A stretch of DNA of 31,900 bases from positions 1 to 31,900 of IMG/VR virus record IMGVR_UViG_3300045931_000225; one strand, written 5' to 3'. Shown here in pieces: positions 5,243 to 29,177 of this stretch (position 1 is its first letter; each line of letters starts with the position of its first letter). The notes under the pieces are model-generated. The model saw only the letters and a list, made by a program, of their open reading frames with translations, had not been told where the DNA came from and searched no databases. The translations under genes were made by a program, and so were the position numbers. The DNA comes from a virus. Taxonomy: Duplodnaviria > Caudoviricetes.

Positions 5243-6109
5243 TTACAGTGGCGTCAGCGTCAGCCAGAACGCCGTGAGTCGTATCAGTCCCGCCGCGCCA
5301 AACAGCGCCCCTGGCGGGTTCGGCGTGATCACCACCGAACCCGCCGTCGCATAATTCGGCATGTCGGCGCGCATCTGCCCCACATTGTTCACGCTATCTT
5401 TCGTAATCCCGAGCGCGGAGCCCCAGCCGCCCCGGATGCCAGGCCCGCCCACATCGACACTCACAAGGCTGTTTTCGGTACTGAGACTTGTCACCACCCG
5501 GTAGCCCACGCCCATCAGCTTCACACCTGCGGGAATCAGCGCCACGGCGGTCAGAAATTCTGCCCCGCCCACGCTGGGCACCTCCACGGTACTCACGCCA
5601 TGCACTTCCCCTGTCCCTGGTGACACCGTCACCGTGGTCAGCGCACGATCAAAGAGCGTCAGCGCGGTCCCGCTGGCGGACCAGCCAATGAGTTTCAGCG
5701 GCTCCGGCCCTGGAAAGACCAGGTTGCGCAACACATTCGCCGCACTCACGGCAAACGCAGGCGATCGCGCGATACGTTCGTACAGGTCTTGCACCATCCG
5801 CGTCAACTTATCCAGCGCCGCCTCGTGGGCTTCCGCGCCAAAGGGATCACCTGCCACGTAATCGGTCTCTTGCGTCTGCGGCGTGACCCGGCGCAGGAAG
5901 ACGATTTGCCCCACGGGCGGCGCGTTGAAGAAGACGACATTCCCGCCTGTGGCACTGCCCACGCCCGTCACGGTGTACGCCGTGGTGAGGACATCGGCCA
6001 GGTAGACTTCGAGATCGCTGGCCGCGCCAATGCGCCAGGGGTAGGCAAAGGTGGTTTGTACCCCATCGCCGACGTAGAAGGTCCAAGGGATTACGGCTTG
6101 TTGCGTCAT
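5243..6109 (-). CDS. Tail fibre adaptor with T7 gp17-like N-terminal attachment domain
   Basis: YVGDGVQTTFAYPW...LRRVTP...EAALDKLTRMVQDL; TAATG coupling with upstream gene. Confidence 0.85.
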   Translation of the reverse strand: MTQQAVIPWTFYVGDGVQTTFAYPWRIGAASDLEVYLADVLTTAYTVTGVGSATGGNVVFFNAPPVGQIVFLRRVTPQTQETDYVAGDPFGAEAHEAALDKLTRMVQDLYERIARSPAFAVSAANVLRNLVFPGPEPLKLIGWSASGTALTLFDRALTTVTVSPGTGEVHGVSTVEVPSVGGAEFLTAVALIPAGVKLMGVGYRVVTSLSTENSLVSVDVGGPGIRGGWGSALGITKDSVNNVGQMRADMPNYATAGSVVITPNPPGALFGAAGLIRLTAFWLTLTPL

Positions 6110-9100
6110 TAGCGCGGGGCTCCTACCCGTAAGCGTTCCTCTTCCCGTCGCAATTGTTGTTCTTGCAGTCCGCGTAAGCGCTCGCGGTGCGGCAGAGGCG
6201 TCCGTTGCAAGTCCTGGAGCGCTTTGCCCGTCAAATACTGTTGGCGCAGCTCGGCATCATTCGCCATCAGTTGCGTATCGCCAAACTGCCGAAAGTCCCG
6301 ATCAATGCGGCGGAGGATTTCTTCTTTGTCGCCTTGCGGCCCCGGCATGCCTTCTTGGTAGCGCTTCGTGGTGGTCGCCCACAGCAAGACGGAGTACAGA
6401 TCGCCTGGCACAGCGGAGGGTAAGCGTTCCCCCGTGTGCCCGCCCACGTCCCGCCGAAGCTGCTCTACGGCCTTGTCATTCACTGTCATTCCGAGTTCCT
6501 GGATTGCTTCACGATTATTCGCGGCCAGCGCAACTCGTCGTTCATACTGTGCCGATGTGAGCACAATACGCTTGGCCGCATACGGATCAGCGGCTTCTGC
6601 CGCCGCATACGCATCTTCCGCCCCTTCGCCTGGCGCGTCCTGTGGCCCGCGTATCCCCAGCGTGCGGGTGGGCATACTGAGGCGTATCTGGTTGGCCAGC
6701 AGTTCCCGATCCAGCGGATCGCGGACGAGCGTTGTCACCTTGAGCGGGCTGATCGCTTCCGTAAAGCCTTCGACCCAGTTGAGCCAGTCTGGCGACCACC
6801 CCCACCCGAGCAAGCGCTTATCCCCCCATTTGTTGCGGTAATTCGGGAGGGCGGCGGCGGTGGCACTCTCTGGGAGCGGTGCCCACCCTGGCACTTTCTG
6901 CCGGAAGCCATCGGCCAGATCCCACGCGGCCTTCGTGGCGGGATCACTCGTTTTCTGCACGACCGACCACACCGCCGGTGCCAGACTGCTGAGCTGTCCC
7001 CGCGCAAACCCGCGCAAGCCTTCAAACTTGCTTTCCCCTTCAAAGGCTCGCATGGAGCGCGGTGCCATGATGTCAAAAAACTCCGACGTGCCGCGCATCC
7101 ACGACCGACTGCCAATATTGCTGATAATGGCAAACGCGGTGCCCATGACCGCGCGTTCCACCATCGAGACCTCTTGCTCCCCCCACGCTTCGATAATATC
7201 GGCCATAATCCCAGCGTGCTGGCCGACAATCGGATCGAGGCGTTGCAAGCTCACGTAGCCGCCATGCTGCCCCAGCCAGGGCACATACATGCTGTAGGGT
7301 TGCCACCCGGCGCGCACCATCGCGGCCCGCAAGTCTTTGTCTTCCGGCCCGCGCCCGGTAATCAGGCCACTGCTCGCCATCAGGCCAAACGTCGCCGCTG
7401 TGAGCGAGCCCATGAGCATCTTGCCCATGGCCATATCGCCTCGTGCCCCACCCGCAGCGATGTCGTCTCGGACTGACTTGAAGAAAAAGCCGAGAGGAGA
7501 ATTTTCCAGGGCATAGCGCGGGATATTCACGGCAATATGGAGGAACGGCATAATCATGCGGCCCAGGGGGAAGGGACCGAGGCCCGGCACATCGACACTC
7601 AAGTTTTGGATCGCACCTCCCATCTTGCCAATGGCCCCCATCATTTCGTTTTGAAACGTCTGGATCAGGGCATGCTGATTCGCGGCCAGGTGCATCTCTT
7701 CGGGCAGTGGCTCCCCCAGCACCCGCGCCATCGTGTCTGCAAACTTTTCTTGACTCGTCGAACCTTCGAGCATGGCCTTGCGGTAGGCCAGCGCTCCCAA
7801 CTCCCCGCCGTAGTTGAGCGTTTTGTAAAACTCATCCCGGCTCAGCATGATCTTGGTGCCCAGCCGTCCGCCACTGGCCAGGCCGACCCACTCAAACCAG
7901 AAATCCGCGAGTTGGCCATAGGGCGAATTCGGATCAATCGGCATGCCGTTGGCTTGGAGGTTGGCCACCGTGAGCGCTGGCCCTGTCGCTTTGCCCTGCC
8001 CAACCGGCTCCATGAGACCTGGAATATCTTTGCCATATTGAGGGAGCCCGGTTGTAAACGCTTCGCCACTGAGTTGCCAGGCGCGTTGCACCTGATGCAT
8101 GAGCCCGTAGGCATAGGCGGCGGTTTCCCCGAGCGTGATCTCCCCCGAGCCGACTGTCTGACTGTACACCCCCGCCATGAGCCGCACAGGGAGCGCCCAG
8201 GCAGCCGTCAGCGCATTGCTCACTTCGTTGGTGAGCCAGGTTTTCGGATTACTCAACATGCCCTGGTAATAGAGTTCCAGCACCATCCCGCCATAGCCTG
8301 GTGTGACGGCTTTCTGCGCAAACTTGACCGCTTCTTTGCCCCCCGCCCGTTGCAGCAGATTGATGTACTGTTGCGCCAGCTTATAGCTATCGAGTCCGGC
8401 GGCCTGTTGGGCAAGCTGCCCGACCATATTGAGCATCTGATTCGTACTACTCAGGGGATCATTCAAAATCCCGAGCGACCGTCCGGCTTCGGCCATCACG
8501 CCCAGCCGTTGCGGATGCGTTGAGGCCACCCCGCCAAACGCCGTCAACCAGTCCCGCTCTTCCTGACTCCCGGCCCCTGGCTGCGTCTGCCCCTGCTCGA
8601 CTTTCTGGATATACGCCGTCGCCAAGTCGCCTGTCTCAGCGGCAACCCGCCCAAGGGTGTGCACCAGGGCAGAGGTGGTCGTATCATCCAGGACAGTCCC
8701 CGGCATCAGTTCCCGCACATCGTCTATGGTAAACCCGCCGGATTCCACAAACGCTCGGCCTTCGTCGTGCACCTGCGCCCGTGGCCGTGTGCCCCGGCGC
8801 TGGTCCTGCGTCTGTGCCTCAAGCGTCTCGGCCATCGCGGCAATATCTTGATAGATACCCACCAACTCAGGGCTGTGAATCAAGGGGATATGTCCCGTGG
8901 ATTGATCGCTATAGACATAGTGGCCTTCGCCAATGCTGCGTTGCATGGCTTCCAGGAGCGCGGTTTTATCCGCCGAGCGCGTAAACCCCAATTGTTGCGC
9001 GGTCTCGGCCATCTGCTGTAACGTCATGCCATTGTTGTTCTGGAGTCCACCAAGCCCGGTTTCCTTACGCGAGATAAGGGCAGCCAACTCTCCGCGCAAC

Positions 9101-11835
9101 TCTTCACCTTCCAGACGGATGCCCCCCTGTTGCCGGATCAAATCTTGCAGCTCTAACTCAATCGAGGGCATCTGACTGAGCGGAATGCGCCAGCGGCCCT
9201 GGTCATCCCGGAAGTTGCCGCGCTCGATGCCTGTCGCTCCGGCCCCGATAGTCGGCGCTTGCTTCGGCGGCGGGGAGGGTTGATGGGGAAAGAGCGTCCG
9301 ATTCCGCAAGGGATTGATGGCCCCGGCTTGGCCCCCGAGCACACTCGTCCCGACACCAACGCCTGTATCTGTCAGCTCTCCGGCTTCACTCGTGGGGCGA
9401 TCCGCATAGGCGAGGACACTTTGAAACCAGGGATGCATTTCTAGGGCAAACGCCGGAATCACTTGCTCCGACGCAAAGGCGATATAGACGCGATGCGGGG
9501 CTGTATCGGTGATCGCCCCGCCCGTATGCGTGATGCCGTCATAGCCCGCTTGCCGTAAGATTTCTGAGGCTTGGGCCTTCCCCAGCGGCTCCTCCCGCTC
9601 ATCAGCCGCTTGCTGCGACAACAGCCGATAGAGCGCCGTGCCATCCACATGCTGCATGCCTCCCATGCGGTCCAGCGTATCACGGAGGTAGTCTGTGGCT
9701 CCTTCGCCAAGATAGGTATCGGCCACCGCGAGAATCCGTGACAGCTCTGCATCGCCTACCAGGGCATCCATATCAAACGGCTTTTTGATGTCCAGATAGA
9801 CGGGGCGAACATTGCCCCCTTCACGCATCGTCGGCACTTTGTAGGCGGTGATCTCGCCACCGATAGCGACCGGCACCACCTCAGTGCCCATCGCTCGCGC
9901 TGCCTGAGCCGCCTGGGCCGGATCATCAAAGGTCTGAAACGCCTGCCCCCGCGCATACTCGCCCGCTGTGCCAGGACTATCCGTAAAATAGAAGCCAGGG
10001 CCATAGAGCGCGGACGGATCGGCGTTCTCGGCTTGAAACGACGCAAACGAGGCTCCTGTCCCGTGATACATGCGCAGCAGCCGTCCTTCTTCATCCCGCA
10101 CCTGACTGTCTTCCATCTCCTTGATGCGCTCGCGCACGGCGTTGAGTTGCTGCTGTTCTGCGGCTTTCTGGGCGTGTGGCCCGCGCGGCTGTCCCTGTCC
10201 ACGCTGCCCTGCGAGCAACCCGCCTGTCACCTGCGTGAGCAGGTCCAGGCCCTTGCGCACCTGTTGCTCCGTGGCCACGGGTAACACCTGGCGCCCCGCC
10301 GCATCGACCGCGAGATGTGCGGCCCCACCCATCACCGCCCCGAGCGCACCCGCTTCAGCGGCATCACCAATATCAAACGGCTGATAGACTTGATGGCCGT
10401 GCTTTTTCCAGCCAATCGCCTGGAGTTGCGCTGCGACGGGATGACTGTCTGGCACCCAGAACTGCCGCCGTTGCACGTCATACTGCACGACCTCTTGGAA
10501 GCCCTCCATGGCGGCGGCTGTACTGAGCTTCAGGACGGCAGGCATGGCGGCTTCACTAAACACCCCGAGGCGATTGGTCAGGCCGAGCACCGCGACGTTG
10601 CGCCAGAAAACCGTATTGGCCCGCTGGGCTGCCGCTTCCTCGCCAATGAGGGGCGTCAAGCGGTCCATCGTCTCCTGGGCTTCCATCCCGGCTTCTTGCA
10701 CCGCCGCCGTCCCTGCCCCCAAGGCGCGCCCGATGGCTGGGGCAAAGCCCTCAATCGCCTGCGCACCCTTCATGGCAAGCGCCCCCGAGCCAAAGAACAC
10801 AATTTGCTGCCCGAGCGTTTGCGCAAAGCGATCCACGATGTTTTCTTCCGTGCCCACCGGATCAAACGTCTGGGCCATCTCGCGGAAGCTATTACGCAGC
10901 CCAGCCGCTGCCGGAAACAGTTGTTCGACCTCGCGCTCGGGAATGCCCAGCAGCCGCCCCGCCGTCATGGGCAGCGCACTGACCCCGGCCAGCGTGCCAA
11001 ACAGCCCTTGCATGACGCGCTGAGGCACCCGCTGCCAGGTCGGCTCTTCCAGCGACACTTCGAGCGCGCCCCCGGGCAAGTCAGGCCGAAACCGTTGCGG
11101 GTCAGGAAACGTCGCTGGCCCAAGCCCTTCACCTTCCCCCTTGCTGGTGTAGCCCAGCGTTTTACTCGTGTCGATCATCGCTGGCGTGAGTGCCGGGATC
11201 GTGGTATCGAGCATCTGGGTACTGGGCGAAGGTCGCGACGGCACTCCTGGCGCCGCCAGCGCCGTCTGGGCGCGGTCTGCCAGCTCATACGGGGCAGAGG
11301 ACACCTGCTCCGGCCCTACCCCGGCCCGTTTGCTCGTGTACGCTTGAGGCGCGGTGCCCCCGAAAACCTTGCGCACATACTGGACCGTCTCATCATACGG
11401 TGGAACTCCGTTGTACTGCCGCACCGCGCCCTCGCCTGCGTTATAGGCCGCGACAACCTTGACCGGATCACCAAACTCATCGGAAAGCGTCTTGAGATAC
11501 TTCAGCATGCCAGGAATCGCTTGGGTCGGATCAAACGGGTCTTGGACGCCAAAGCGCCGCGCCGTAGCAGGCATAAACTGCGCAATCCCTTGCGCGCCGG
11601 CAGGACTGACCGCCTGCGGATTCCAGGCACTTTCCGCCTGAATCATGGCCTTCACCATCAGCGGGTCTTGCCCATACTGGGGGGCCAACTCATCCACCAG
11701 CGCCTCATACTGCTGGCGAGGGGCCATCAGGGGCGCCGGTGGACGTAGGTTGTCTTCCAGCCAGCTATCCAACTGACGCTTGAGCCGTTGTGGCCCCCGT
11801 TCCAGATACAAGCTACTGACCTCATCAGCGGCCAT
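6109..11835 (-). CDS. Large internal virion/ejection protein (T7 gp16 position) with lytic transglycosylase and ART-like domains
   Basis: SLT motifs AES..NPQAVSPAGAQGIAQFMPATA, AAYNAG, ETVQYV; YHGT...GPGFYFT...GYDGI; 1908 aa; synteny. Confidence 0.85.
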   Translation of the reverse strand: MAADEVSSLYLERGPQRLKRQLDSWLEDNLRPPAPLMAPRQQYEALVDELAPQYGQDPLMVKAMIQAESAWNPQAVSPAGAQGIAQFMPATARRFGVQDPFDPTQAIPGMLKYLKTLSDEFGDPVKVVAAYNAGEGAVRQYNGVPPYDETVQYVRKVFGGTAPQAYTSKRAGVGPEQVSSAPYELADRAQTALAAPGVPSRPSPSTQMLDTTIPALTPAMIDTSKTLGYTSKGEGEGLGPATFPDPQRFRPDLPGGALEVSLEEPTWQRVPQRVMQGLFGTLAGVSALPMTAGRLLGIPEREVEQLFPAAAGLRNSFREMAQTFDPVGTEENIVDRFAQTLGQQIVFFGSGALAMKGAQAIEGFAPAIGRALGAGTAAVQEAGMEAQETMDRLTPLIGEEAAAQRANTVFWRNVAVLGLTNRLGVFSEAAMPAVLKLSTAAAMEGFQEVVQYDVQRRQFWVPDSHPVAAQLQAIGWKKHGHQVYQPFDIGDAAEAGALGAVMGGAAHLAVDAAGRQVLPVATEQQVRKGLDLLTQVTGGLLAGQRGQGQPRGPHAQKAAEQQQLNAVRERIKEMEDSQVRDEEGRLLRMYHGTGASFASFQAENADPSALYGPGFYFTDSPGTAGEYARGQAFQTFDDPAQAAQAARAMGTEVVPVAIGGEITAYKVPTMREGGNVRPVYLDIKKPFDMDALVGDAELSRILAVADTYLGEGATDYLRDTLDRMGGMQHVDGTALYRLLSQQAADEREEPLGKAQASEILRQAGYDGITHTGGAITDTAPHRVYIAFASEQVIPAFALEMHPWFQSVLAYADRPTSEAGELTDTGVGVGTSVLGGQAGAINPLRNRTLFPHQPSPPPKQAPTIGAGATGIERGNFRDDQGRWRIPLSQMPSIELELQDLIRQQGGIRLEGEELRGELAALISRKETGLGGLQNNNGMTLQQMAETAQQLGFTRSADKTALLEAMQRSIGEGHYVYSDQSTGHIPLIHSPELVGIYQDIAAMAETLEAQTQDQRRGTRPRAQVHDEGRAFVESGGFTIDDVRELMPGTVLDDTTTSALVHTLGRVAAETGDLATAYIQKVEQGQTQPGAGSQEERDWLTAFGGVASTHPQRLGVMAEAGRSLGILNDPLSSTNQMLNMVGQLAQQAAGLDSYKLAQQYINLLQRAGGKEAVKFAQKAVTPGYGGMVLELYYQGMLSNPKTWLTNEVSNALTAAWALPVRLMAGVYSQTVGSGEITLGETAAYAYGLMHQVQRAWQLSGEAFTTGLPQYGKDIPGLMEPVGQGKATGPALTVANLQANGMPIDPNSPYGQLADFWFEWVGLASGGRLGTKIMLSRDEFYKTLNYGGELGALAYRKAMLEGSTSQEKFADTMARVLGEPLPEEMHLAANQHALIQTFQNEMMGAIGKMGGAIQNLSVDVPGLGPFPLGRMIMPFLHIAVNIPRYALENSPLGFFFKSVRDDIAAGGARGDMAMGKMLMGSLTAATFGLMASSGLITGRGPEDKDLRAAMVRAGWQPYSMYVPWLGQHGGYVSLQRLDPIVGQHAGIMADIIEAWGEQEVSMVERAVMGTAFAIISNIGSRSWMRGTSEFFDIMAPRSMRAFEGESKFEGLRGFARGQLSSLAPAVWSVVQKTSDPATKAAWDLADGFRQKVPGWAPLPESATAAALPNYRNKWGDKRLLGWGWSPDWLNWVEGFTEAISPLKVTTLVRDPLDRELLANQIRLSMPTRTLGIRGPQDAPGEGAEDAYAAAEAADPYAAKRIVLTSAQYERRVALAANNREAIQELGMTVNDKAVEQLRRDVGGHTGERLPSAVPGDLYSVLLWATTTKRYQEGMPGPQGDKEEILRRIDRDFRQFGDTQLMANDAELRQQYLTGKALQDLQRTPLPHRERLRGLQEQQLRREEERLRVGAPR

Positions 11836-13637: not shown

Positions 13638-14390
13638 CTATCCCTTCAGCAGCGTCAGGTTCTTCCGCTGTTCTTCCAGGGTCTGATACACCGCCGCTCC
13701 TTTGGTCACCGACGCACTCGCCCTGAGCAACCCCGCGCCCACCGCCGACCCATCCGCTTCGCTGCGCAGCAACCCGCCCTGTGCGCCCCCGATGCGTAAC
13801 CGCTCCGCGCCGCCAAACCGGGCCAGTTGCGCCGCGTACTCGTCCTGCGTGATCTGTTCCTCAGCCGCCTGCCGCTGCTGGCGTAGCTGGACTTCCGTCT
13901 GGTAGCGCGTGGCGAGGATGTCGAGCTGTTGCTGGCGTGCCGTTTCTTCGTACACGGCCAGGGGCGAGCCGCTCATCATCAGGCCGCTACTCGCCACAAT
14001 CGCTCGCGTCTGCCCCAGAATCCGCGCGTCTTGCTCCCGCTGCCGCTCCTCCCGGTAGCTCTGCGCCGTCTGGGCAATCTGCTCCGCGTCCGCCAGTTGC
14101 TGCCGCGTCAGGGCGGCACGCCGGATGTATTGTTGCGCCTCGATTTCGGCGGCGTTGGCTTGCGCCTGGGCGTTGGCTTCCGTCACCTCGGCGTTATACT
14201 CGGCAATGCGCTTCGCGCGCTTCGCCGCGAGGATGCCTTGGGCAAGCTGCGCGAAGGCTTCCACGCCGTAGCCCGCGCCGGCAATGTTGGAGCCCGTGCC
14301 CAGCTTCGCCCAGTCAATATTGAGCGAGGCTGGTGTGGTCTCTGGCATGGGGCGATAATCGGGATAGCTGGCTTCACCTTCACTAGGCAT
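13638..14390 (-). CDS. Internal virion/ejection protein (T7 gp14 position)
   Basis: A/Q-rich coiled coil with GQTRAIVASSGLMMSGSPL motif; TGATG coupling to nozzle gene. Confidence 0.7.
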   Translation of the reverse strand: MPSEGEASYPDYRPMPETTPASLNIDWAKLGTGSNIAGAGYGVEAFAQLAQGILAAKRAKRIAEYNAEVTEANAQAQANAAEIEAQQYIRRAALTRQQLADAEQIAQTAQSYREERQREQDARILGQTRAIVASSGLMMSGSPLAVYEETARQQQLDILATRYQTEVQLRQQRQAAEEQITQDEYAAQLARFGGAERLRIGGAQGGLLRSEADGSAVGAGLLRASASVTKGAAVYQTLEEQRKNLTLLKG

Positions 14391-17299
14391 CAGGCACGAA
14401 CCTCCAGGTCCACGGTGCCCATGACACCGATCAGCGTACACGGCAATGGTTTGTCTACATGGAACGAAATAAACCCGTACTTATCGTACCCTAAAGCGAG
14501 AACCTCCCGATCCCCAGTAAACGGGGCAGGCCCCTGGTCCTGGGGCATGTGGGGCTGTCGGAAGGGTATGGTTTCCCCTTGGAGCACCAGGCACGCCGTC
14601 TGCATCACCCGCGCTCGCAGATTGGTCCAGCGCTTCCGCAGGCCCTGCCCGGTCTGCCCGCGTACCGTCACGTCCACCGGCATCGTGCGCCCGCGTGGCG
14701 TATAGTCCAGCCCGACAAACGCCGTGTGCACCGCTTGCGACAACACGACTTGCCCCCCTGTGACTGCTTGGGGAGGGAACACTGCTCCATCCCCAACAAG
14801 CTGCACCGTGGCGCCTTCGAGATGGCCTAAGCCCGTCAGCGTGGCGGTATTGATGCCCGTGTAGACGCGCGCACAATCCACCGTCAGCCCGTCCCAGCCT
14901 GTGATAGATTCCTGCTCCTGCGTCAGTTCGTTAAACATAGGTACGGCTTCCGGCAGGACCATCGAGGCTTCAGGATCGAGGTATTCGAGACACCGCGTCA
15001 CATGGCCCCCGATGGTACGTTGACACGCGATCCAGACCTGATACGCATTGGCCGTAGGATGTGGAATCGTCGCCACACTCTCGACCACGCCCTGCGTCAC
15101 AAACCGCCACGGCGCCACGACCTGTTCACTTTGGTCATACGTCATCGCTACCATCTGCCCATCTGACCGCACGCCCCACACCACAGGCAGCGGTTCCGGC
15201 TGATAGGCCAACTCGAGCAAACGATAGTGCTTCAGGAGGTGATCGCTCGTAATCAGCAGATCACGCGCGATGTACGTGGTTTGGGTACGCTCATCGTAGG
15301 ACATTTCCCGCAGTTTGGAGCCTTGCCGTTGGGCAAACAGCAACGACCCGCCGACCTTGAGCGGTTGCACCGTGTCACTGCCAAACGTGCTCTGGATACG
15401 GTTGCGCGGCGGCGTCGCAGGCGACAGCGGATCATCCCCCGAGCCGATCAGGCGATATTCGCCGTGCGTGGTCCCCACGAGCATGTTTTCCGCTGGCATG
15501 AGCCACCGGATACGGTTGAGCGTGATATTGCCGCCACTGTCCACCAGCGCGAGTTCGAGGGCATCGTCCGCGTTTGGCCCCACTGTAAAGTTAAAGAGGT
15601 CATCAATCACGCTGCCCCACACCGTCTGCGGAAACTGCGCCGTGCCCGCAAAATAGAGCCGCCCTTCATAGAGCACCACGGCGGAGGGCCACCCCAGCGC
15701 GTCCGACCAGGCGTCTTGCTCCAGCGACCAGGCCCCCGCTGCCGCCACAGCGTCACTCGACAATTCCTTGACGATTTGCCCCGTCATCTGTGACCCATTG
15801 ACATAGCCCGTTAAGCGCACCAACCCGCCATGCACCCGCACATACTGCCCGACTTCCGTGGCCCGAAAGCCCGCCACGCTATACTGGCGACACGTAATAC
15901 TGCCGACCCGCGCCGCACTATCCTGATTGTTGCGGAACTGGAGATACGAGGTGGTCGTGGTTGCCGTAAAACTGAACTCCCGATCCCCAATAGCGTAGCT
16001 GGCCTCCGCCTCGACATCGGAGGCTTCCGCCGTCGTACCGACCTGCGCCGAGACTTGCGCCTCACTGACCCGAAACGCCACCCGGTAGGTAACACCCACC
16101 ACCGTCGTGAGGGGTTGACTAATCCATCCCACCCCCGCCGTCCCGCCCGTGAGAATCGCCATTCCCGCGATCACCGAGGCCCCGCCTGTCCCCGCGATGC
16201 TATAGGTATCACCACTGTCAAAATCGTTATCCGTACCCCCGACCAGCCCCGGCTCCGCAATCAGCAGAAACAGGGTGCTGACCGTCGCCACCACCCCGGT
16301 ACACCCATCCGTCGTGTTGTAGACCACCTGCGTGGGCCGCACGCCCGCATTCACAAAATCCTGCGAGGCGTCCTGCAAATTATCGTTATTGCCGCCGCCG
16401 TCATGCGTGCCCGTGAGAAACGCCCCCCGTGAGGCGTTGGTCCACCCGGTCAGATCCCCCGTGCCAAAATCACCATTCGTCACAAGGTTGGCGGCGGCGT
16501 CTTGCTGTTGCAGCAGCGTCACCGTCACGGTCCCCCCGACGGGCCCGGTCTTATCGACCTGGAGCTTCGCCACTGGAGACCGCTCTAATTTCCAGTCCCC
16601 CGCTGGCAGGGTTGTCGAACTAAAGGCGTCAATGATGTCGAGGGTCGCACTGGTCGTGCTGGTGGCCGTGCGGATGATGCCGCGCCCAATGCCACTGCTC
16701 AGCACGCGGTCAATATCGCCCACCAGCCAGAACGCGCCGCTGGAGGTCACCGAGACGCCGGTGCCTGTCGTGGCGCCGAGCGTCAGCGTAAATGGTCCCT
16801 CGATGCCCGCCTCGTAGGTCGGCATGGGGTAGAAGGGCACCGGGCGAAAGTCCCACGCTGAGCCATCCGCCTCAAGTCGGGAGAGCCGTTGGGGTGCATA
16901 ATGGGGATGCACCCAGATCATCACATCATTGCTCTGCGCCGTGCGCAGCAAGCGCAAGTCCGCTTCCTGGTACGGTGTGGCCACCTCGATAGGCACGCTG
17001 GCGACTTCGAGGCGTGCGCCGTTGTGGTAGAACCGGATGTACTCATGGCCGACTTCAAGGATATAGGCATCGGTCGTGGACGGCTCAAAGGGCTTCACCA
17101 ACGTCAGGCGTGAAGGATACTTGACCGTGGCAACGTAGCGCGTCCCTGGACGGCGCGTAATGCCGCCTTGCGGCAGCACCTGGAAATTCTCCAAGAGGAT
17201 GGCGCCGTTCTTGTAGCGGTCGATGTCGCCACGCGCGGCCATGAGTGACGAAATTTCGCCACTCGTGAAGGCATTTTTGATGACATCGACTAACGCCAC
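14390..17299 (-). CDS. Tail tubular protein B / nozzle (T7 gp12-like)
   Basis: NAFTSGEIS...GGITRRPGT, GWPSAVVLYEGRLYFAG, VWGS..DDLFNF; 969 aa. Confidence 0.9.
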   Translation of the reverse strand: MALVDVIKNAFTSGEISSLMAARGDIDRYKNGAILLENFQVLPQGGITRRPGTRYVATVKYPSRLTLVKPFEPSTTDAYILEVGHEYIRFYHNGARLEVASVPIEVATPYQEADLRLLRTAQSNDVMIWVHPHYAPQRLSRLEADGSAWDFRPVPFYPMPTYEAGIEGPFTLTLGATTGTGVSVTSSGAFWLVGDIDRVLSSGIGRGIIRTATSTTSATLDIIDAFSSTTLPAGDWKLERSPVAKLQVDKTGPVGGTVTVTLLQQQDAAANLVTNGDFGTGDLTGWTNASRGAFLTGTHDGGGNNDNLQDASQDFVNAGVRPTQVVYNTTDGCTGVVATVSTLFLLIAEPGLVGGTDNDFDSGDTYSIAGTGGASVIAGMAILTGGTAGVGWISQPLTTVVGVTYRVAFRVSEAQVSAQVGTTAEASDVEAEASYAIGDREFSFTATTTTSYLQFRNNQDSAARVGSITCRQYSVAGFRATEVGQYVRVHGGLVRLTGYVNGSQMTGQIVKELSSDAVAAAGAWSLEQDAWSDALGWPSAVVLYEGRLYFAGTAQFPQTVWGSVIDDLFNFTVGPNADDALELALVDSGGNITLNRIRWLMPAENMLVGTTHGEYRLIGSGDDPLSPATPPRNRIQSTFGSDTVQPLKVGGSLLFAQRQGSKLREMSYDERTQTTYIARDLLITSDHLLKHYRLLELAYQPEPLPVVWGVRSDGQMVAMTYDQSEQVVAPWRFVTQGVVESVATIPHPTANAYQVWIACQRTIGGHVTRCLEYLDPEASMVLPEAVPMFNELTQEQESITGWDGLTVDCARVYTGINTATLTGLGHLEGATVQLVGDGAVFPPQAVTGGQVVLSQAVHTAFVGLDYTPRGRTMPVDVTVRGQTGQGLRKRWTNLRARVMQTACLVLQGETIPFRQPHMPQDQGPAPFTGDREVLALGYDKYGFISFHVDKPLPCTLIGVMGTVDLEVRA

Positions 17300-19195: not shown

Positions 19196-19762
19196 ATGAA
19201 TCTTTTTACATGCACTAGCTGTAGAATCCCCAAGCCGCCAGACGCTTTCGCAATAAAACGTGCCAACAAAAGAGGCAGGAATAATCAATGTAAAGAATGT
19301 CGCAGCAAATACTCTGCGACCTACTATGCAAAGAATCGTGAGAGCTTTCTTGCAAAAGCCAAAGCCTATGCCCTTGCACATCCCAAGCAAAGAAAGGCTT
19401 GGGCCCATAGCCATTATCTTGCGAATATTAAGAAGAGACGTGCTGAGGCAAGAGAAGCAAGCAGCCGTCGATACGCAGAGAATCCAAGATATTTTATAGA
19501 AAAAACCGACAAGCGCAGAGCCTTGAAGCGTAAAGCTCCTTTTGTTGAAAGCGTTTCTATCGCTTATGTTTACGAGCGTGACAAAGGCATATGCCAGATA
19601 TGTTTGAAAGCTTGTAAACGCCAGGATGCCAGTCGGGACCATGTTATTCCTACCTCGCTAGGTGGGGCATGGAGCCGTCAAAATACAGTTCTTGCCCATC
19701 TTTCTTGTAATAAGAGCAAGAACAACCGCACCGTCCCCCAGCAACAGCGCCTGTTCGGCTAG
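19196..19762 (+). CDS. HNH endonuclease 1 (free-standing, antisense to the operon)
   Basis: N-terminal CxxC...CxxC finger; CQIC...DHVIPTSLGG...N...HLSCNKSK; AGGAGG RBS. Confidence 0.92.
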   Translation: MNLFTCTSCRIPKPPDAFAIKRANKRGRNNQCKECRSKYSATYYAKNRESFLAKAKAYALAHPKQRKAWAHSHYLANIKKRRAEAREASSRRYAENPRYFIEKTDKRRALKRKAPFVESVSIAYVYERDKGICQICLKACKRQDASRDHVIPTSLGGAWSRQNTVLAHLSCNKSKNNRTVPQQQRLFG

Positions 19763-20511: not shown

Positions 20512-21698
20512 TTACAGCGTGCTTTGGCACACGATGCTCAAAACGCCCCTGTCATGCACGCGCACCGCGCCAAAGTGTTCTTTGACGATGATGCCGCGTG
20601 CCAGATGCCGTGTCGGCAGATCGCCCACCCAGATACGGCGCCCGCGCCACCGCGCAAAGCCCATGGCCTGCTTGTGGAACGCCAGGTTGATAAAGTCCGA
20701 CCCCGACAGGTTGAGCTGGTTGCTAATTTGGATACGGAACCCCATGTACGCCTCAATGCGCCCGTTCACGAGCGGCATACGACTGGAGACTTCCGAGCCG
20801 TTCACAATCATCACGCCGAGGTAATCGGTGGACGTGGCTTCCGTCTGTTCCAGCAAGTTTTTATGGCCTGCTGCATTGGTGATCCAGACGAAGTTGGCCA
20901 TGCCCATCGCCATCTCATCCGTGCCCACTTCGCGCGCATCAAACACCGCCCGCGCCTTGCGCATCTTATCAATCGTCAACCCGGACGCGGCCACGGCAAT
21001 CTGGTTGCCCCCACTGCCATCGACCGCAGCCTCCGTGGTGCTGTACACGCTGGTGCCCGTCCCCGTCGCCCCACTCACCGCCGTCGCCGTGACCGCGTCG
21101 ATAATCACCTTGTCAATCCTGCGGTTCATGGCCATCACGGCGTTTTGGCCATAGCCCATTTCCAGGTCAATGAGCATCTCCATGGCGTCTTCTTCATCCA
21201 GCATCTGCGCGTCTTCGTAGTCGCCCTTCACGGCCCAGCGCCGATACGACGGGCTGTCGTGAAAATGCGTCTCGCCGTGGCGCTCGCCCGTAATGTCCGT
21301 CACTTCCGATTCGCCCAGAAGCCCGAAGGCGGCCATGGTCCCAACCACGCCATCCTTGACCCGCACATAGCCCTGGAGACGTGCCATGCGTTGCTGAAAC
21401 AGGTGCATGTGTTACCGCGAGGGCTCTTTATCCCTCGCTTCTGCATGTCGCCATGCAGGTCAGACTATATCTTCGCCCCTGTACGGGAGCGCCGGGGGTT
21501 CGTGGGCGGGTTATTGTTGGGACGCACCGCCTAGTCGTTCGACCTTCCAGAGCACCGCTGCCCACTCTGGCTTGGTACGGGATTGGCTCAGAGAGCTATC
21601 CCCCGTTTATCCCGGTTTTATTACGACCAGATTTAGTTCAAATCGTAATCACTTTCGAATTGCAAAACGAGAGCATCATTTGGTCCGTTATTTGGCAC
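20512..21698 (-). CDS. Major capsid protein, spliced: exon 1 21698-21642, exon 2 21405-20512 (316 aa)
   Basis: AAGGAG + GTG; joined protein MPNNGPNDALVLQFESDYD|HLFQQRMARLQ; AMNRRIDKVII, YMGF, FGAVRV motifs; follows scaffold. Confidence 0.92.
21406..21641 (-). ncRNA. Group I self-splicing intron (236 nt, no ORF)
   Basis: P1 ATTACGAT/GTCGTAAT with U.G wobble; P3 CCGGG/CCCGG; P7 GACTA with AAGATATAGTC; P9 TGCATG-GCGA-CATGCA; terminal G; removal restores the frame. Confidence 0.93.
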
Positions 21699-21832
21699 AA
21701 ATAACTCCTTAATATACAAGGAGTTGCAGTGTACCGAGGGGTTGTCACGCTCGTGATCCCTCTGCGTTGTTCGTCACGCTTACGGCTGGTCTCACCCAGC
21801 AGTAGCCGCCTCCGCAGAGGGGTTGTGCGGCA

Positions 21833-21861
21833 TGGACAACTAGAACTTTTAAGGCTATAAT
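21833..21861 (+). promoter_or_regulatory. sigma70-type promoter for HNH-2
   Basis: TGGACA-17 nt-TATAAT. Confidence 0.7.
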
Positions 21862-22447
21862 GATGTGTGATAGACTTCCATGTGTGGCAACAGGTCTGCA
21901 GCCTGGGCAACCATCCATTGCCAGCCACACACCACCCATGGATACCCTTGATGGATGCAAGGACACTATGCCCCGCAAAGAGATCAGTGCGCGCCGCGCC
22001 TACAACAATGCTTATCATGAAGCCCACAGAAGTGAGCGTAATGCTGCTGAACGTGCGCGCCGCTCCCAAAAACGAGAACTTATCAGGGCTCAAAATCGTG
22101 CCTACTATCTCGCGAACCTTGAGCAAGAACATGCACGCAACGCTCGTTACAATGCAGCTCATCCTGAAGTCGTAAATGCCAGAAGTGCCCGTCATCGCAG
22201 CGTGCAAGCCAGCGCTCCCATCAACGACTTCACCGCGGCCCAATGGAAAGACATGCAAGCCCATTACAAACATTGCTGTGTGTATTGTGGCAAACGCGCC
22301 AAGGGGAAATTGACTCAGGACCACATCACACCTCTGGCAAAAGGCGGCAACCATACCAAGGCCAATATCGTGCCCGCCTGTAAATCCTGTAATTCCCGCA
22401 AACATACGAATGCTCCACCTGTGCCCGTGCAACCGCTGCTGCTCTAG
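21840..22447 (+). mobile_element. Putative HNH cassette 2 bounded by CTAG
   Basis: CTAG at 21840-21843 and 22444-22447. Confidence 0.55.
21968..22447 (+). CDS. HNH endonuclease 2 (free-standing, antisense to the operon)
   Basis: CVYCG...DHITPLAKGG...NIVPACKSCNSRK; AAGGA RBS before ATG 21968. Confidence 0.92.
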   Translation: MPRKEISARRAYNNAYHEAHRSERNAAERARRSQKRELIRAQNRAYYLANLEQEHARNARYNAAHPEVVNARSARHRSVQASAPINDFTAAQWKDMQAHYKHCCVYCGKRAKGKLTQDHITPLAKGGNHTKANIVPACKSCNSRKHTNAPPVPVQPLLL

Positions 22448-26721: not shown

Positions 26722-27068
26722 TACATCACCCCCTCTAGCGCTGTTGCGGTAATCGTGACCGTCCCCGTCGTCCCGCCACTGAGCCGCGCCCGCACGAGCC
26801 GAAACCCCCCGACCGCCATCCGCCAGAGCTGCGCCGTGGTGCCCGTCACCGTGGCCGTCAGCGCCGCCGTGCCGGTCGCCGCGTTCGTCGCCTGGATGGC
26901 CACGTAATTGGTGCCATCCTGACTCGCCTCAAAATTGACGACCCGATCCGCCCCAGCGGAGCCCACAATCCCCACCCCCACGACCCCATAGCCCGTCACC
27001 TCCAGCGCCGTGCCATTGCCCGAGCTGGCCGCGCTCTGGAGCGTGGCACTTTTGGTATCCGCACTCAT
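26721..27068 (-). CDS. Beta-rich hypothetical protein (possibly structural)
   Basis: G/T/A-rich; VNFEASQDGTNY...VRARLS; ATGA coupling. Confidence 0.7.
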   Translation of the reverse strand: MSADTKSATLQSAASSGNGTALEVTGYGVVGVGIVGSAGADRVVNFEASQDGTNYVAIQATNAATGTAALTATVTGTTAQLWRMAVGGFRLVRARLSGGTTGTVTITATALEGVM

Positions 27069-27793
27069 CGCCGCCCTCCTGCCACCCGCCTGAGAGGGTT
27101 ACTCGTGGCCGTCGCATATGCCTGCCCCTGCGACGAGGGCAGGCTGCGCGGCGCAAACCGCTCGCCAAACCACACGGCGATGGCGCAGGCCAAGAGCAGA
27201 TCATCGTGGGTACCCTCTCGCCACGCGCCGTACAGATCGTTCCCCGCTTTACTGACCTTCCAAGTGAAATTTTGACCTTCTCTAAATAAGGTCTCCGCAT
27301 CCTTCAGCCCTGCCGCCACCCGAAAGCGCCGTTGTTGCAACGCCACCATGAACGTCATAATCAGGTCACGCTTCGGCACGTACCACTCATCCCACCGCTC
27401 ACTCCGGGCATGCTCGGCGTTCGTGATCGTGATGGCGATGATCGTGGGCTTGCCGGGCAGTGTTAGGCGTTCGCCCGTCAGGGAATCATGCGACGTCCAC
27501 CCCTCACGGAACTGATCGACCACCACGCGCCCCACCCCCGTGGCATCAATCACCAGCACCGCGCGTTCGCCCAGCTTTTCTAACCGCTCCCGCACGCCTT
27601 TGACCATCACGGGATACGGCGTCTGTAAGGGCAAGCGTTCCAAGTAGCGCGTATCGAAGCGTGGCGCGAGTGCGCCCCTGTCGAGGAGCATCTGGCGCTC
27701 CATGATACAGAGGGCAGTCGGATCAGCAGTTTGCCCAATATCGAGACCAGCGATGAAGCGCGGAGGACGGTAGAGCGCAGCGGCAGTGTCCAT
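27065..27793 (-). CDS. Terminase large subunit, nuclease (RNase H-like) half
   Basis: IAGLDIGQTADPTAL, VIDATGVG, HDDLLLACAIA; start ATG 27793 coupled by TAATG. Confidence 0.87.
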   Translation of the reverse strand: MDTAAALYRPPRFIAGLDIGQTADPTALCIMERQMLLDRGALAPRFDTRYLERLPLQTPYPVMVKGVRERLEKLGERAVLVIDATGVGRVVVDQFREGWTSHDSLTGERLTLPGKPTIIAITITNAEHARSERWDEWYVPKRDLIMTFMVALQQRRFRVAAGLKDAETLFREGQNFTWKVSKAGNDLYGAWREGTHDDLLLACAIAVWFGERFAPRSLPSSQGQAYATATSNPLRRVAGGRR

Positions 27794-28164
27794 TAGAGTG
27801 CCAATTGCTCCATAAGCGTGCGCAATCCCATGCCCAGGCGTTCCAAGGCATAGGCCCGCTGGTACAACTCTCCCACCAGCCGACAACTCGGCGCCGGCGC
27901 TTCTGAGACTGGCACATGCTCAGGCTGCACCATTGGCTGCAACACCCCGCCCCGCTCCAGACGTATCCGTAATTGATCGAGTAAAGTCTCTGCCTGCGTT
28001 TCTAATTGTTCCAGAGCAATCATCGCTCGTTCAACCGGCGTGGCCTCCTGGCTCATATCCCGAGGCGGACGCGCCGCCGCACCATACGCCTGCTTCGCCG
28101 CAAAATCGCCATACACCATCTGGGAGGCTTCCCGCATCTGTTTGCTTATTGCTAGTGGGTCCAT
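27793..28164 (-). CDS. Helical hypothetical protein between the terminase halves
   Basis: 123 aa, GGGAG RBS, overlaps both neighbours. Confidence 0.7.
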   Translation of the reverse strand: MDPLAISKQMREASQMVYGDFAAKQAYGAAARPPRDMSQEATPVERAMIALEQLETQAETLLDQLRIRLERGGVLQPMVQPEHVPVSEAPAPSCRLVGELYQRAYALERLGMGLRTLMEQLAL

Positions 28165-29177
28165 CCGTTGCTCCCGCTAAAATCCAGTGCCGCGACCTCG
28201 CCCCGCACGACGCGCCCATCTTCCACCATCGCATCACCCGCACCAAAGAGCGGCACGACCTCGCCCGACAGCATCGCCATCAAGTCAGCCGTGGTAAAAA
28301 TTTGTTCGCCGTTATCGACAAATTCACAGAGCCACTCCGACCGCCAATACAGGTCAGGGATGGAGCGCCGCTCATGGGCCAGGAAGCGTTTACTCAGCCG
28401 CGTATTCTCCGGCCCTGTCAGCTTGGTCCGTGTCCACCCATACGCGCGCTCGACCGTCTCAGGTTCTGACGCCTCATCGAGCCGGATACCCAAATCCGCC
28501 AACAGGCTATTGACCGTGGCCACATCGAGCGGTTGTTCTTCCGCCCGCGACCCCTCCCACGCCTCGTAATACCACCCGCGCTTCCCGAACGGCGTCGAGA
28601 GCGCCAGGATACTCCCGCCACTCATCGCCAGCATGGGCCGCAGCGCATGATAGGTGGCATCGGCGACCCGTGCCGCTTCATCCGGGATCAGCCGCTTGAC
28701 ACTCGAATACCCGACGAGCGTTTCCGCAGACGCTGGTAAGCTAATAATGCGGCTACCGTTTTCCAGTTCCATCTCATGTTCCGTATCTTTGAGTAACCGC
28801 ATCGGCTTGACCTGATTGTAAAAATGTTTGGTCTTGCGGTACAACTCAGAACTCTGGCGCAAGGAGGGCGACACCAACAGAATGAGCGCCCCTGGCGTTT
28901 CGAGCGCATCCGCTAACGCTATCGCCGCCACAATGGTGCTTTTGCCCGCCTGCCTGTGGCACAAGAGCAACTGATCGCCTGGCGTCGTGGCCACCCGTAT
29001 CTGCCAAGGGTCCGGCTCCAGCCCCGCGCGCCGCATCAAAGAGACGGCATCATACGCCTGCTCGGTCAGTGCGACACATTGTTGCCGCTCACGCAACCAC
29101 GCGGAGGCTTGCTGCACTAGTGGTATGCGCTTCGATGATTGCTTGAAGCTCTTTCTGGGCGTCGCCACTCCCGGCAT
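28152..29177 (-). CDS. Terminase large subunit, ATPase half (true start uncertain, probably nearer 29096)
   Basis: PDPWQ, Walker A HRQAGKST, Walker B LIPDEAA, coupling motif LSTP, EWLCEF. Confidence 0.9.
   Translation of the reverse strand: MPGVATPRKSFKQSSKRIPLVQQASAWLRERQQCVALTEQAYDAVSLMRRAGLEPDPWQIRVATTPGDQLLLCHRQAGKSTIVAAIALADALETPGALILLVSPSLRQSSELYRKTKHFYNQVKPMRLLKDTEHEMELENGSRIISLPASAETLVGYSSVKRLIPDEAARVADATYHALRPMLAMSGGSILALSTPFGKRGWYYEAWEGSRAEEQPLDVATVNSLLADLGIRLDEASEPETVERAYGWTRTKLTGPENTRLSKRFLAHERRSIPDLYWRSEWLCEFVDNGEQIFTTADLMAMLSGEVVPLFGAGDAMVEDGRVVRGEVAALDFSGSNGWTH

What the first reader, a model, noticed from the sequence alone, without database searches (positions are those of the whole stretch)
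21406..21641. ORF-less group I intron splitting the major capsid gene
Seen (minus strand): exon 1 ends GATTACGAT; the guide GTCGTAAT pairs with a U.G at the splice site; P3-P9 are identifiable, including AAGATATAGTC (21473-21463), GACTA, an extra GGCGG/CCGCC stem after P7 (IA-like) and a terminal G at 21406. Unspliced RNA stops two codons into the intron; splicing gives QFESDYD-HLFQQ. Established: phage group I introns are mostly described in DNA-metabolism genes, with some in terminase, lysin and other late genes. Here production of the most abundant virion protein would depend on splicing.
Basis: partly seen in the sequence, partly recalled or inferred. Interest (0 to 1): 0.85.

Follow-up and report, generated by a model that had tools for sequence, protein, structure and literature searches.

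The report
Self-splicing intron in phage capsid gene
A 236-base self-splicing-type intron with no gene of its own splits the major capsid gene of an uncultured phage and likely has to be spliced out before capsid protein is made; such capsid introns are already known, and the extra here is a neighbouring stand-alone DNA-cutting gene that may help it spread.

Summary
The 236-nt insert (21641-21406, minus strand) matches the group I intron model (E 8.7e-10; 49.2 bits, gathering 50). All helices tested pair. One excision, U21642 to G21406, best restores a 316-aa capsid, and near-identical intronless alleles exist. No RNA run was listed, so splicing is inferred.

The implied novelty does not hold. 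Capsid-gene introns are published (LittleE by RT-PCR, PMC3706429; crAss-like phages, PMC7886860), and this scan noted many on other DNA. In my IMG/VR sample, 26 of 58 introns of this type lay in major head genes.

(1) An antisense free-standing HNH gene with a promoter-like site (21833-22447) just upstream, absent from 19 of 20 relatives; candidate collaborative homing, but not an obligate pair.
(2) This capsid family carries introns at four sites, one at the same codon in a roughly 40%-identical capsid.
(3) A strongly covarying leader RNA without Rfam match in front of the gene.

Verdict: new member of a known kind.

The parts
21406..21641 (-). ORF-less group I intron, 236 nt, IA-type (one P7.1 stem, no P2), ends in omega-G 21406
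   Evidence: RF00028 E 8.7e-10; helices; exact removal restores the homologous capsid
21642..21698 (-). Capsid exon 1, 19 codons, GTG start
   Evidence: matches residues 1-19 of intronless P0001; M1 and A9 invariant in 40 homologues
20512..21405 (-). Capsid exon 2, 297 codons plus stop (PF19821 Phage_capsid_2, phrog_3437 major head)
   Evidence: 98% identical to P0001 residues 20-316
21620..21627 (-). Internal guide sequence (P1 3' strand), 8 pairs with the exon end including U.G
   Evidence: 30 of 20,000 shuffles reach 8 pairs
21633..21635 (-). In-frame TAA in the P1 loop; unspliced RNA gives a 21-residue peptide
21463..21536 (-). Catalytic core: P7 (21536-21532 with 21467-21463), P7.1 (21531-21527 with 21509-21505), P3', P8, J8/7
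21417..21458 (-). P9 (21458-21441) and 3' hairpin (21438-21417), the 3' signature used for the collection scan
21703..21725 (-). Hairpin that encloses the Shine-Dalgarno sequence (21710-21705) of the capsid gene; similar hairpins seen by eye in intronless relatives
21699..21830 (-). Conserved structured leader of the capsid gene, shared with intronless relatives, no Rfam match
   Evidence: 17 of 18 pairs change on both sides in 15 sequences; 0 of 500 shuffles reach it; slid controls far lower; no Rfam hit
21833..21861 (+). Sigma-70-like promoter (11 of 12) facing the HNH gene, divergent from the capsid leader
   Evidence: 1 site found, 2.3 expected at the looser 9-of-12 threshold; contigs in runs X8 and X12 carry the consensus base at 21834
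21968..22447 (+). Free-standing HNH endonuclease gene, antisense to the structural genes; likely start 21968 (or 21938), because the ORF's first ATG at 21860 overlaps the -10 box
   Evidence: Pfam HNH E 2e-13, above cut-off; database gene calls of 159 and 169 aa; an HNH-like frame in only 1 of 20 relatives with at least 1,100 nt upstream

Best explanation
The insert is an intact ORF-less group I (IA-type) intron after codon 19 of a podovirus-like major capsid gene; it likely excises itself from the late mRNA to give the 316-residue capsid protein, and it likely spreads with help from the antisense HNH endonuclease gene next door. Splicing (inferred from the group I family, about 0.93): P1 presents U21642.G, a guanosine bound in P7 attacks there, and the freed exon 1 attacks after G21406, joining Asp19 to His20 in frame. 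Unspliced RNA stops two codons into the intron. Mobility (inferred, about 0.55 in any form): the HNH, expressed from its own sigma-70-like promoter, would cut intronless, HNH-less alleles in or near the start of the capsid gene. Repair would then copy the HNH, leader, exon 1 and intron together. The strict form, in which the intron itself shields the cut site (collaborative homing), I put at about 0.35.
For: Intron model match and full helix set. A unique U...G junction restores the homologous protein. Intronless proteins P0001 and P0177 are 98-99% identical to the spliced product. Contigs in run X8 join the two exons at the DNA level in a related allele. Exon-1 residues are conserved, and the alternative ATG at 21408 has no Shine-Dalgarno-like sequence in front. 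For HNH help: the close relatives L029 and L032 (88% and 86% capsid identity) lack both intron and upstream HNH. One X8 contig carries intron 5' half, exon 1, leader, promoter and a diverged HNH together. It differs at 11 of 408 bases over that block, while the overlapping contig into exon 2 differs at 35 of 330. In L029 and L032 the leader is far less conserved than exon 2 (54-57% against 78-80%). This fits a recent block transfer. The HNH passes the Pfam cut-off. The closest full-length relative among my loci (L068, 66% global) is an ORF-less psbA intron followed by a free-standing nuclease-like ORF.
Against: No RNA-level test was possible. The Rfam score is 0.8 bit under the gathering cut-off. 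P10 is only 2 bp by inspection. The pair is not obligate: L040 has a related HNH (48% over 109 aa) in the same place and orientation before an intronless capsid gene. L027 has an intron at the same codon with no HNH-like frame in 1,300 nt upstream. The exon-junction sequence of L040 does not stand out from HNH-less alleles. The X8 evidence rests on two separate contigs from a mixed metagenome that overlap by 30 bases. The surroundings of P0001 and P0177 are unknown. A second antisense HNH lies at 19196-19762, so free-standing nucleases are simply common here.
Confidence: 0.8

Rival explanations
1. The intron is real and spliced, but its spread has nothing to do with the HNH. It was inherited vertically after losing its own endonuclease, or arrived by reverse splicing, while the HNH homes on its own at another site such as the scaffold gene.
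For: An HNH without intron in L040 and an intron at the same codon without HNH in L027. Related capsid introns L052 and L053 carry HNH frames within or beside the intron, so loss of an internal ORF is plausible. The L027 intron at the same site is barely more similar to this one than shuffles are (52.5% against a mean of 47.6%, maximum 51.8%).
Against: Intron and HNH occur together in the window lineage and in one X8 contig, and are jointly absent from the closest relatives. The block covering intron, leader and promoter is more conserved in X8 than exon 2.
Confidence: 0.42
2. Splicing is dispensable or dead: the capsid is translated from the AUG formed by the intron's last three bases, giving a 298-residue protein, as gene callers annotate it.
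For: An open 298-codon frame exists, and database entries start there (P0175, P0178).
Against: No Shine-Dalgarno-like sequence lies before that AUG, whereas the GTG at 21698 has a strong one. The 18 lost residues are present in 51 of 54 homologues and include invariant A9. All core helices are intact.
Confidence: 0.04
3. The insert is an assembly chimera or chance insertion.
For: The Rfam score is slightly under the gathering cut-off.
Against: An identical copy lies in a second IMG/VR contig. Contigs of other studies carry it at 89-100% identity joined to the capsid exons. E-value 8.7e-10.
Confidence: 0.01

Closest known systems
Capsid-gene intron of mycobacteriophage LittleE (Pope et al. 2013, PMC3706429; passages read)
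   Same: Probable group I intron in a major capsid gene, with U at the end of exon 1 and G at the end of the intron; splicing needed for the most abundant virion protein (shown there by RT-PCR and N-terminal sequencing)
   Different: LittleE's intron is 819 bp with an antisense endonuclease ORF inside, in a siphovirus. Here the intron is 236 nt and ORF-less, with the nuclease outside the gene, in a podovirus-like phage
Group I introns in MCP genes of crAss-like phages, Delta and Zeta groups (Yutin et al. 2021, PMC7886860; passages read)
   Same: Group I introns interrupting MCP, sometimes several per gene
   Different: Those were found mainly through intron-encoded endonuclease domains, in large gut phages. 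This one has no ORF, and the capsid is of the PF19821 family (about 30% identical to Pelagibacter phage HTVC010P and Ralstonia phage DU_RP_II capsids)
Collaborative homing: cyanophage S-PM2 psbA intron with free-standing F-CphI (PMC6083498, passages; PMC3984707 section 12)
   Same: ORF-less intron with an adjacent free-standing beta-beta-alpha nuclease; the closest full-length intron among my loci is a psbA intron beside a nuclease-like ORF
   Different: Cleavage and protection are shown for F-CphI and untested here. This nuclease is a zinc-finger HNH lying upstream and antisense, and relatives show each partner alone
T4 segD (PMC2988022; passages read)
   Same: Free-standing endonuclease gene antisense to the structural genes, next to the major capsid gene
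   Different: segD is GIY-YIG, has no identified promoter of its own, and the passages read mention no intron in gene 23. This HNH has an 11-of-12 promoter-like site

Membership tests
Group I intron | Match to the covariance model RF00028 | tested here: met
   E 8.7e-10 over model positions 1-253; 49.2 bits, 0.8 under gathering
Group I intron | P1 with U.G at the 5' splice site | tested here: met
   8 of 8 pairs; 30 of 20,000 shuffles
Group I intron | Core P3, P4, P6, P7, P8, P9 with conserved R and S elements and the G-binding pair | tested here: met
Group I intron | Terminal G whose removal with the intron restores the host frame | tested here: met
   the junction 21642|21405 is the best fit to intronless P0177
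Group I intron | P10 pairing with the 3' exon | tested here: inconclusive
   only 2 contiguous pairs by inspection
Group I intron | GTP-dependent self-splicing; spliced RNA in vivo | not testable with these tools
   needs an in vitro transcript or infected-cell RNA
Class IA | Extra stem(s) P7.1/P7.2 between P7 and P3' (assignment to IA recalled; PMC3984707 section 5 lists these as class features) | tested here: met
   5-bp P7.1; changed on both sides in L024 intron B, L052 and L068 (read by eye)
Subgroup IA2 or IA3 | Best score against subgroup covariance models | not testable with these tools
   only the general RF00028 model is held; PMC11878797 notes that phage IA2/IA3 assignments are heterogeneous
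Collaborative homing system | ORF-less intron | tested here: met
   236 nt, fully accounted for by helices; no sense ORF of 70 aa or more inside
Collaborative homing system | Adjacent free-standing endonuclease with intact motif | tested here: met
   Pfam HNH above cut-off, about 330 nt from the intron
Collaborative homing system | Joint presence and absence in relatives | tested here: inconclusive
   together in the window lineage and one X8 contig; both absent from 18 of 20 relatives at this site; but L040 has the HNH only and L027 the intron only
Collaborative homing system | Nuclease cuts the intronless site and the intron blocks the cut | not testable with these tools
   needs a cleavage assay

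The most novel reading that the evidence does not exclude
The start of this podovirus-like capsid gene is a collaborative-homing hot spot. An antisense HNH with its own promoter cuts at or near codon 19 and carries an ORF-less intron and a new leader RNA with it. More broadly, major capsid genes, not DNA-metabolism genes, are the commonest hosts of this IA-type intron in uncultured phages (26 of 58 sampled, 7 PHROG families).
Probability: 0.35. Interest if true: 0.55.

Novelty: new member of a known kind. Interest (0 to 1): 0.36.

Why it matters
On its own the intron is ordinary. It does matter for annotation: gene callers clip this capsid to 298 or 291 residues. Three wider points are more useful. 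First, the sample suggests that the textbook list of phage intron hosts (polymerases, ribonucleotide reductases, terminases; PMC3984707 section 11) under-counts capsid genes. Second, a compact 236-nt ribozyme with a near-identical intronless allele and one adjacent 159-aa HNH is a cheap system for testing collaborative homing in a structural gene. Third, the covarying leader with a Shine-Dalgarno-enclosing hairpin is a candidate translational control element without an Rfam family.

Tried and rejected
RNA evidence: no RNA holder listed among 14 runs; only DNA contigs could be laid, and run X9 gave no laid contig.

Close relatives of the HNH in IMG/VR: only the identical contig. The 520 protein homologues come without context. 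An exact 21-base intron pattern found only the identical contig. The capsid family was not found in GTDB genomes. The divergent-capsid alignment and L046 queries added one repeat and one distant locus.

BLAST of the intron against cultured phages gave only partial 3' matches. S-PM2 was not among the 15 of 81 rows shown for the L068 psbA intron, so I do not claim that L068's intron is the S-PM2 intron.

No sequence difference at the junction separates HNH-bearing from HNH-less alleles.

A suspected second intron in the terminase was rejected: the ATPase part (28152-29177) and a following gene (27065-27886) are separate frames with a gene between them, and cmscan found only one intron in the window. 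The exact 5' end of L024 intron B was not fixed; several cut points fit.

Literature searches returned no paper on this capsid family's introns, nor one stating that capsid genes are the commonest host. The library lacks most subscription journals. I read no supplements; those of PMC11835236 and PMC12350094 may list host genes.

Full report
Context. The window is a 31.9-kb virus record, 64% complete by CheckV. Its structural genes lie on the minus strand: terminase, portal, a scaffold-like gene, capsid, tail tube proteins and internal virion proteins. This is a podovirus-like order. The capsid belongs to PF19821/phrog_3437, and the nearest cultured capsids are about 30% identical (Pelagibacter phage HTVC010P, Ralstonia phage DU_RP_II). 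The runs that hold at least half of the stretch are on record as soil metagenomes; five of these six may be its source.

Observation. A hand check pairs P1 8/8, P3 5/5, P4 6/6, P5 4/4, P6 2/2, P6a 8/8, P7 5/5, P7.1 5/5, P8 6/6, P9 7/7 and the 3' hairpin 7/7. Only 30 of 20,000 shuffles give an equally long guide. There is no P2, and P10 is only 2 bp by inspection. The region folds with z -2.99.

Splice sites. Joining 21698-21642 to 21405-20512 gives 316 residues. P0001 and P0177 are intronless 316-aa proteins, 98-99% identical to that product. Among the trial excisions, the best fit to P0177 is the U21642...G21406 junction. Of 54 homologues, 51 carry the exon-1 peptide in one piece with exon 2; three start further downstream and may themselves be split or miscalled. 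A contig in run X8 joins the two exons at the DNA level, with synonymous changes in the last four codons of exon 1. The alternative start at the intron's last three bases has no Shine-Dalgarno-like sequence, and the GTG at 21698 has one. Splicing itself was not observed.

How it most likely works. From established group I chemistry (PMC3984707 section 5), a guanosine bound in P7 attacks the U.G site in P1, and exon 1 then attacks after the terminal G. Ribosomes on unspliced RNA stop at the TAA two codons into the intron. In-frame stops of this kind are common and are thought to help folding (PMC3984707 section 11). The Shine-Dalgarno sequence lies in a 9-bp hairpin, which might delay initiation long enough for P1 to form. 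Similar hairpins appear by eye in intronless relatives, so this is not an adaptation to the intron. That last step is inference.

The neighbouring nuclease. Between the scaffold-like gene and the capsid leader lies an antisense HNH gene (Pfam HNH E 2e-13). An 11-of-12 sigma-70-like promoter precedes it at 21833-21861 (one site found, against 2.3 expected at the looser threshold). Contigs in two other runs carry the consensus base at the one mismatch. I screened 24 other capsid loci, about one per sequence type and not fully independent; 20 had at least 1,100 nt upstream. One of the 20 (L040) has an HNH-like frame there, 48% identical over 109 aa, in the same orientation, before an intronless capsid gene. 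One (L027) has an intron at the same codon and no HNH. The other 18 have neither at this site. One X8 contig holds the intron's 5' half, exon 1, leader, promoter and a diverged HNH. It differs at 11 of 408 bases over that block, against 35 of 330 in the overlapping contig that runs into exon 2. In the intronless relatives L029 and L032 the order is reversed, with the leader at 54-57% and exon 2 at 78-80%. This hints at a recent transfer of the block, but it rests on two contigs from a mixed sample. The layout resembles collaborative homing (S-PM2 psbA intron with F-CphI; PMC6083498) and the antisense position of T4 segD (PMC2988022). The defining cleavage test could not be done, so I call it a candidate, not a member.

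The capsid gene as a recurrent host. Two of the 24 other loci carry introns, at three further sites and at this one. L027 has one after the same Asp codon (69.5 and 61 bits for its two introns) and one near residue 82. L024 has one in codon 12 of the alignment, about 1.27 kb with an antisense LAGLIDADG-like frame, and one near the C-terminus; the latter was found by BLAST and not by cmscan. The same-site intron of L027 is hardly more like this one than shuffles are (52.5% against 47.6%), whereas L024 intron B (63.7%) and a psbA intron in L068 (66.4%) are closer. The site was therefore probably occupied twice. An exact 3' pattern found three other IMG/VR loci, all in capsid genes of other families.

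Host-gene sample. A looser pattern gave 121 loci from 6 of 64 parts of IMG/VR, about 1,300 stretches estimated in all. I kept matches with a J8/7-like motif, a distinct 3' end and a downstream frame of 40 aa or more: 89 of 123 matches. I scanned 58 of the 59 with long flanks, leaving out L115 (a near-copy of L072) and the 30 with short flanks. PHROG best hits at E 1e-8 were: major head 26 (7 families), DNA polymerase 6, tape measure 4, terminase 3, ATPase 3, portal 2, helicase 2, Sak4 1, amidotransferase 1, unknown family 4, none 6. The pattern came from this intron, the loci cluster in families, and IMG/VR favours contigs with capsid genes, so 26 of 58 is not an unbiased rate. It does show that a capsid host is common.

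What is known. PMC3706429 (passages) shows a spliced capsid intron in LittleE and cites one in Tuc2009, which I did not read. PMC7886860 (passages) reports group I introns in crAss-like MCP genes. [quoted passage not shown] PMC11835236 (passages) says that over half of viral group I introns are IA2. PMC11878797 (passages) finds phage IA subgroups heterogeneous. PMC6669764 (passages) added nothing. PMC12350094 was seen as a listing only. Earlier notes of this scan hold 340 findings with the words intron, capsid, phage and splicing, and several candidate collaborative-homing pairs at giant-virus capsid genes. None covered this genome or this capsid sequence. I did not test those notes.

Leader RNA. 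The roughly 130 nt in front of the capsid gene align across 15 sequences with strong covariation: 17 of 18 pairs change on both sides, 93% of cells pair, 0 of 500 shuffles reach this, and slid controls pair 35-45%. The structure was derived from the same alignment, which favours it. No Rfam family matched the window's leader or those of six relatives.

Verdict. A real, intact ORF-less group I intron in a phage major capsid gene: a new member of a known kind, interest 0.36. Splicing is about 0.93 likely, HNH-assisted spread about 0.55, and strict collaborative homing about 0.35.

Noticed in passing
window 21699-21830 (-) and leaders of L029, L032, L041, L014, L016, L017, L022, L037, L039, L040, L044, L042, L043, L019: A conserved, strongly covarying structured leader before this capsid family's gene (17 of 18 pairs with changes on both sides), ending in a hairpin over the Shine-Dalgarno sequence; no Rfam match. 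Candidate new cis-regulatory RNA.
   Followed up: partly
L027 2235-2500 and 2687-3008: Two ORF-less group I introns in a roughly 40%-identical capsid gene, the first after the same codon as in the window but of different sequence.
   Followed up: partly
L024 1232-2499 and about 3330-3610; ORF 3666-4508: A capsid gene with two group I-like introns, the first holding an antisense LAGLIDADG-like frame (1469-2365), followed by a free-standing 280-aa nuclease-like ORF without a Pfam hit.
   Followed up: partly
L040 1717-2259 (-) and 2258-2321: A related antisense HNH before an intronless capsid gene, with an int-alpA RNA match (37.2 bits, above gathering) just upstream of the HNH.
   Followed up: partly
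window 19196-19762 (+): A second antisense free-standing HNH, two genes downstream of the capsid; related frames sit at a similar place in L005-L008 and L046.
   Followed up: no
window 28152-29177 and 27065-27886 (-): The terminase large subunit appears split into an ATPase gene and a separate probable nuclease-domain gene, with a small gene (27793-28164) between them; no intron signal.
   Followed up: partly
L054-L133 (IMG/VR sample): Major head genes host 26 of 58 sampled introns of this type; in 12 of the 26 the downstream exon starts at profile position 34 or earlier, so N-terminal sites dominate across unrelated capsid families.
   Followed up: partly
L068 (psbA locus): An ORF-less psbA intron, 66% identical to the window's intron, followed by a free-standing 235-aa nuclease-like ORF; PhotoRC-II RNA upstream.
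   Followed up: partly
L051 201-429, 1520-1752, 1823-2058 (-): Three group I introns around one P22-like capsid locus (phrog_283), with an antisense HNH-like frame related to the window's (37% over 73 aa).
   Followed up: no
window 6109-11835 (-): A 1,908-aa virion protein with a transglycosylase SLT domain and an ART-PolyVal ADP-ribosyltransferase domain.
   Followed up: no
window 14390-17299 (-): A 969-aa tail protein whose PHROG matches (5-187 and 418-964) leave about 230 residues unmatched between them; possible insertion.
   Followed up: no
P0022, P0025, P0027, P0178: Capsid homologues called without the N-terminal peptide; they may be further intron-split alleles. P0178 starts at the same intron-derived Met as the window's gene call.
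   Followed up: no
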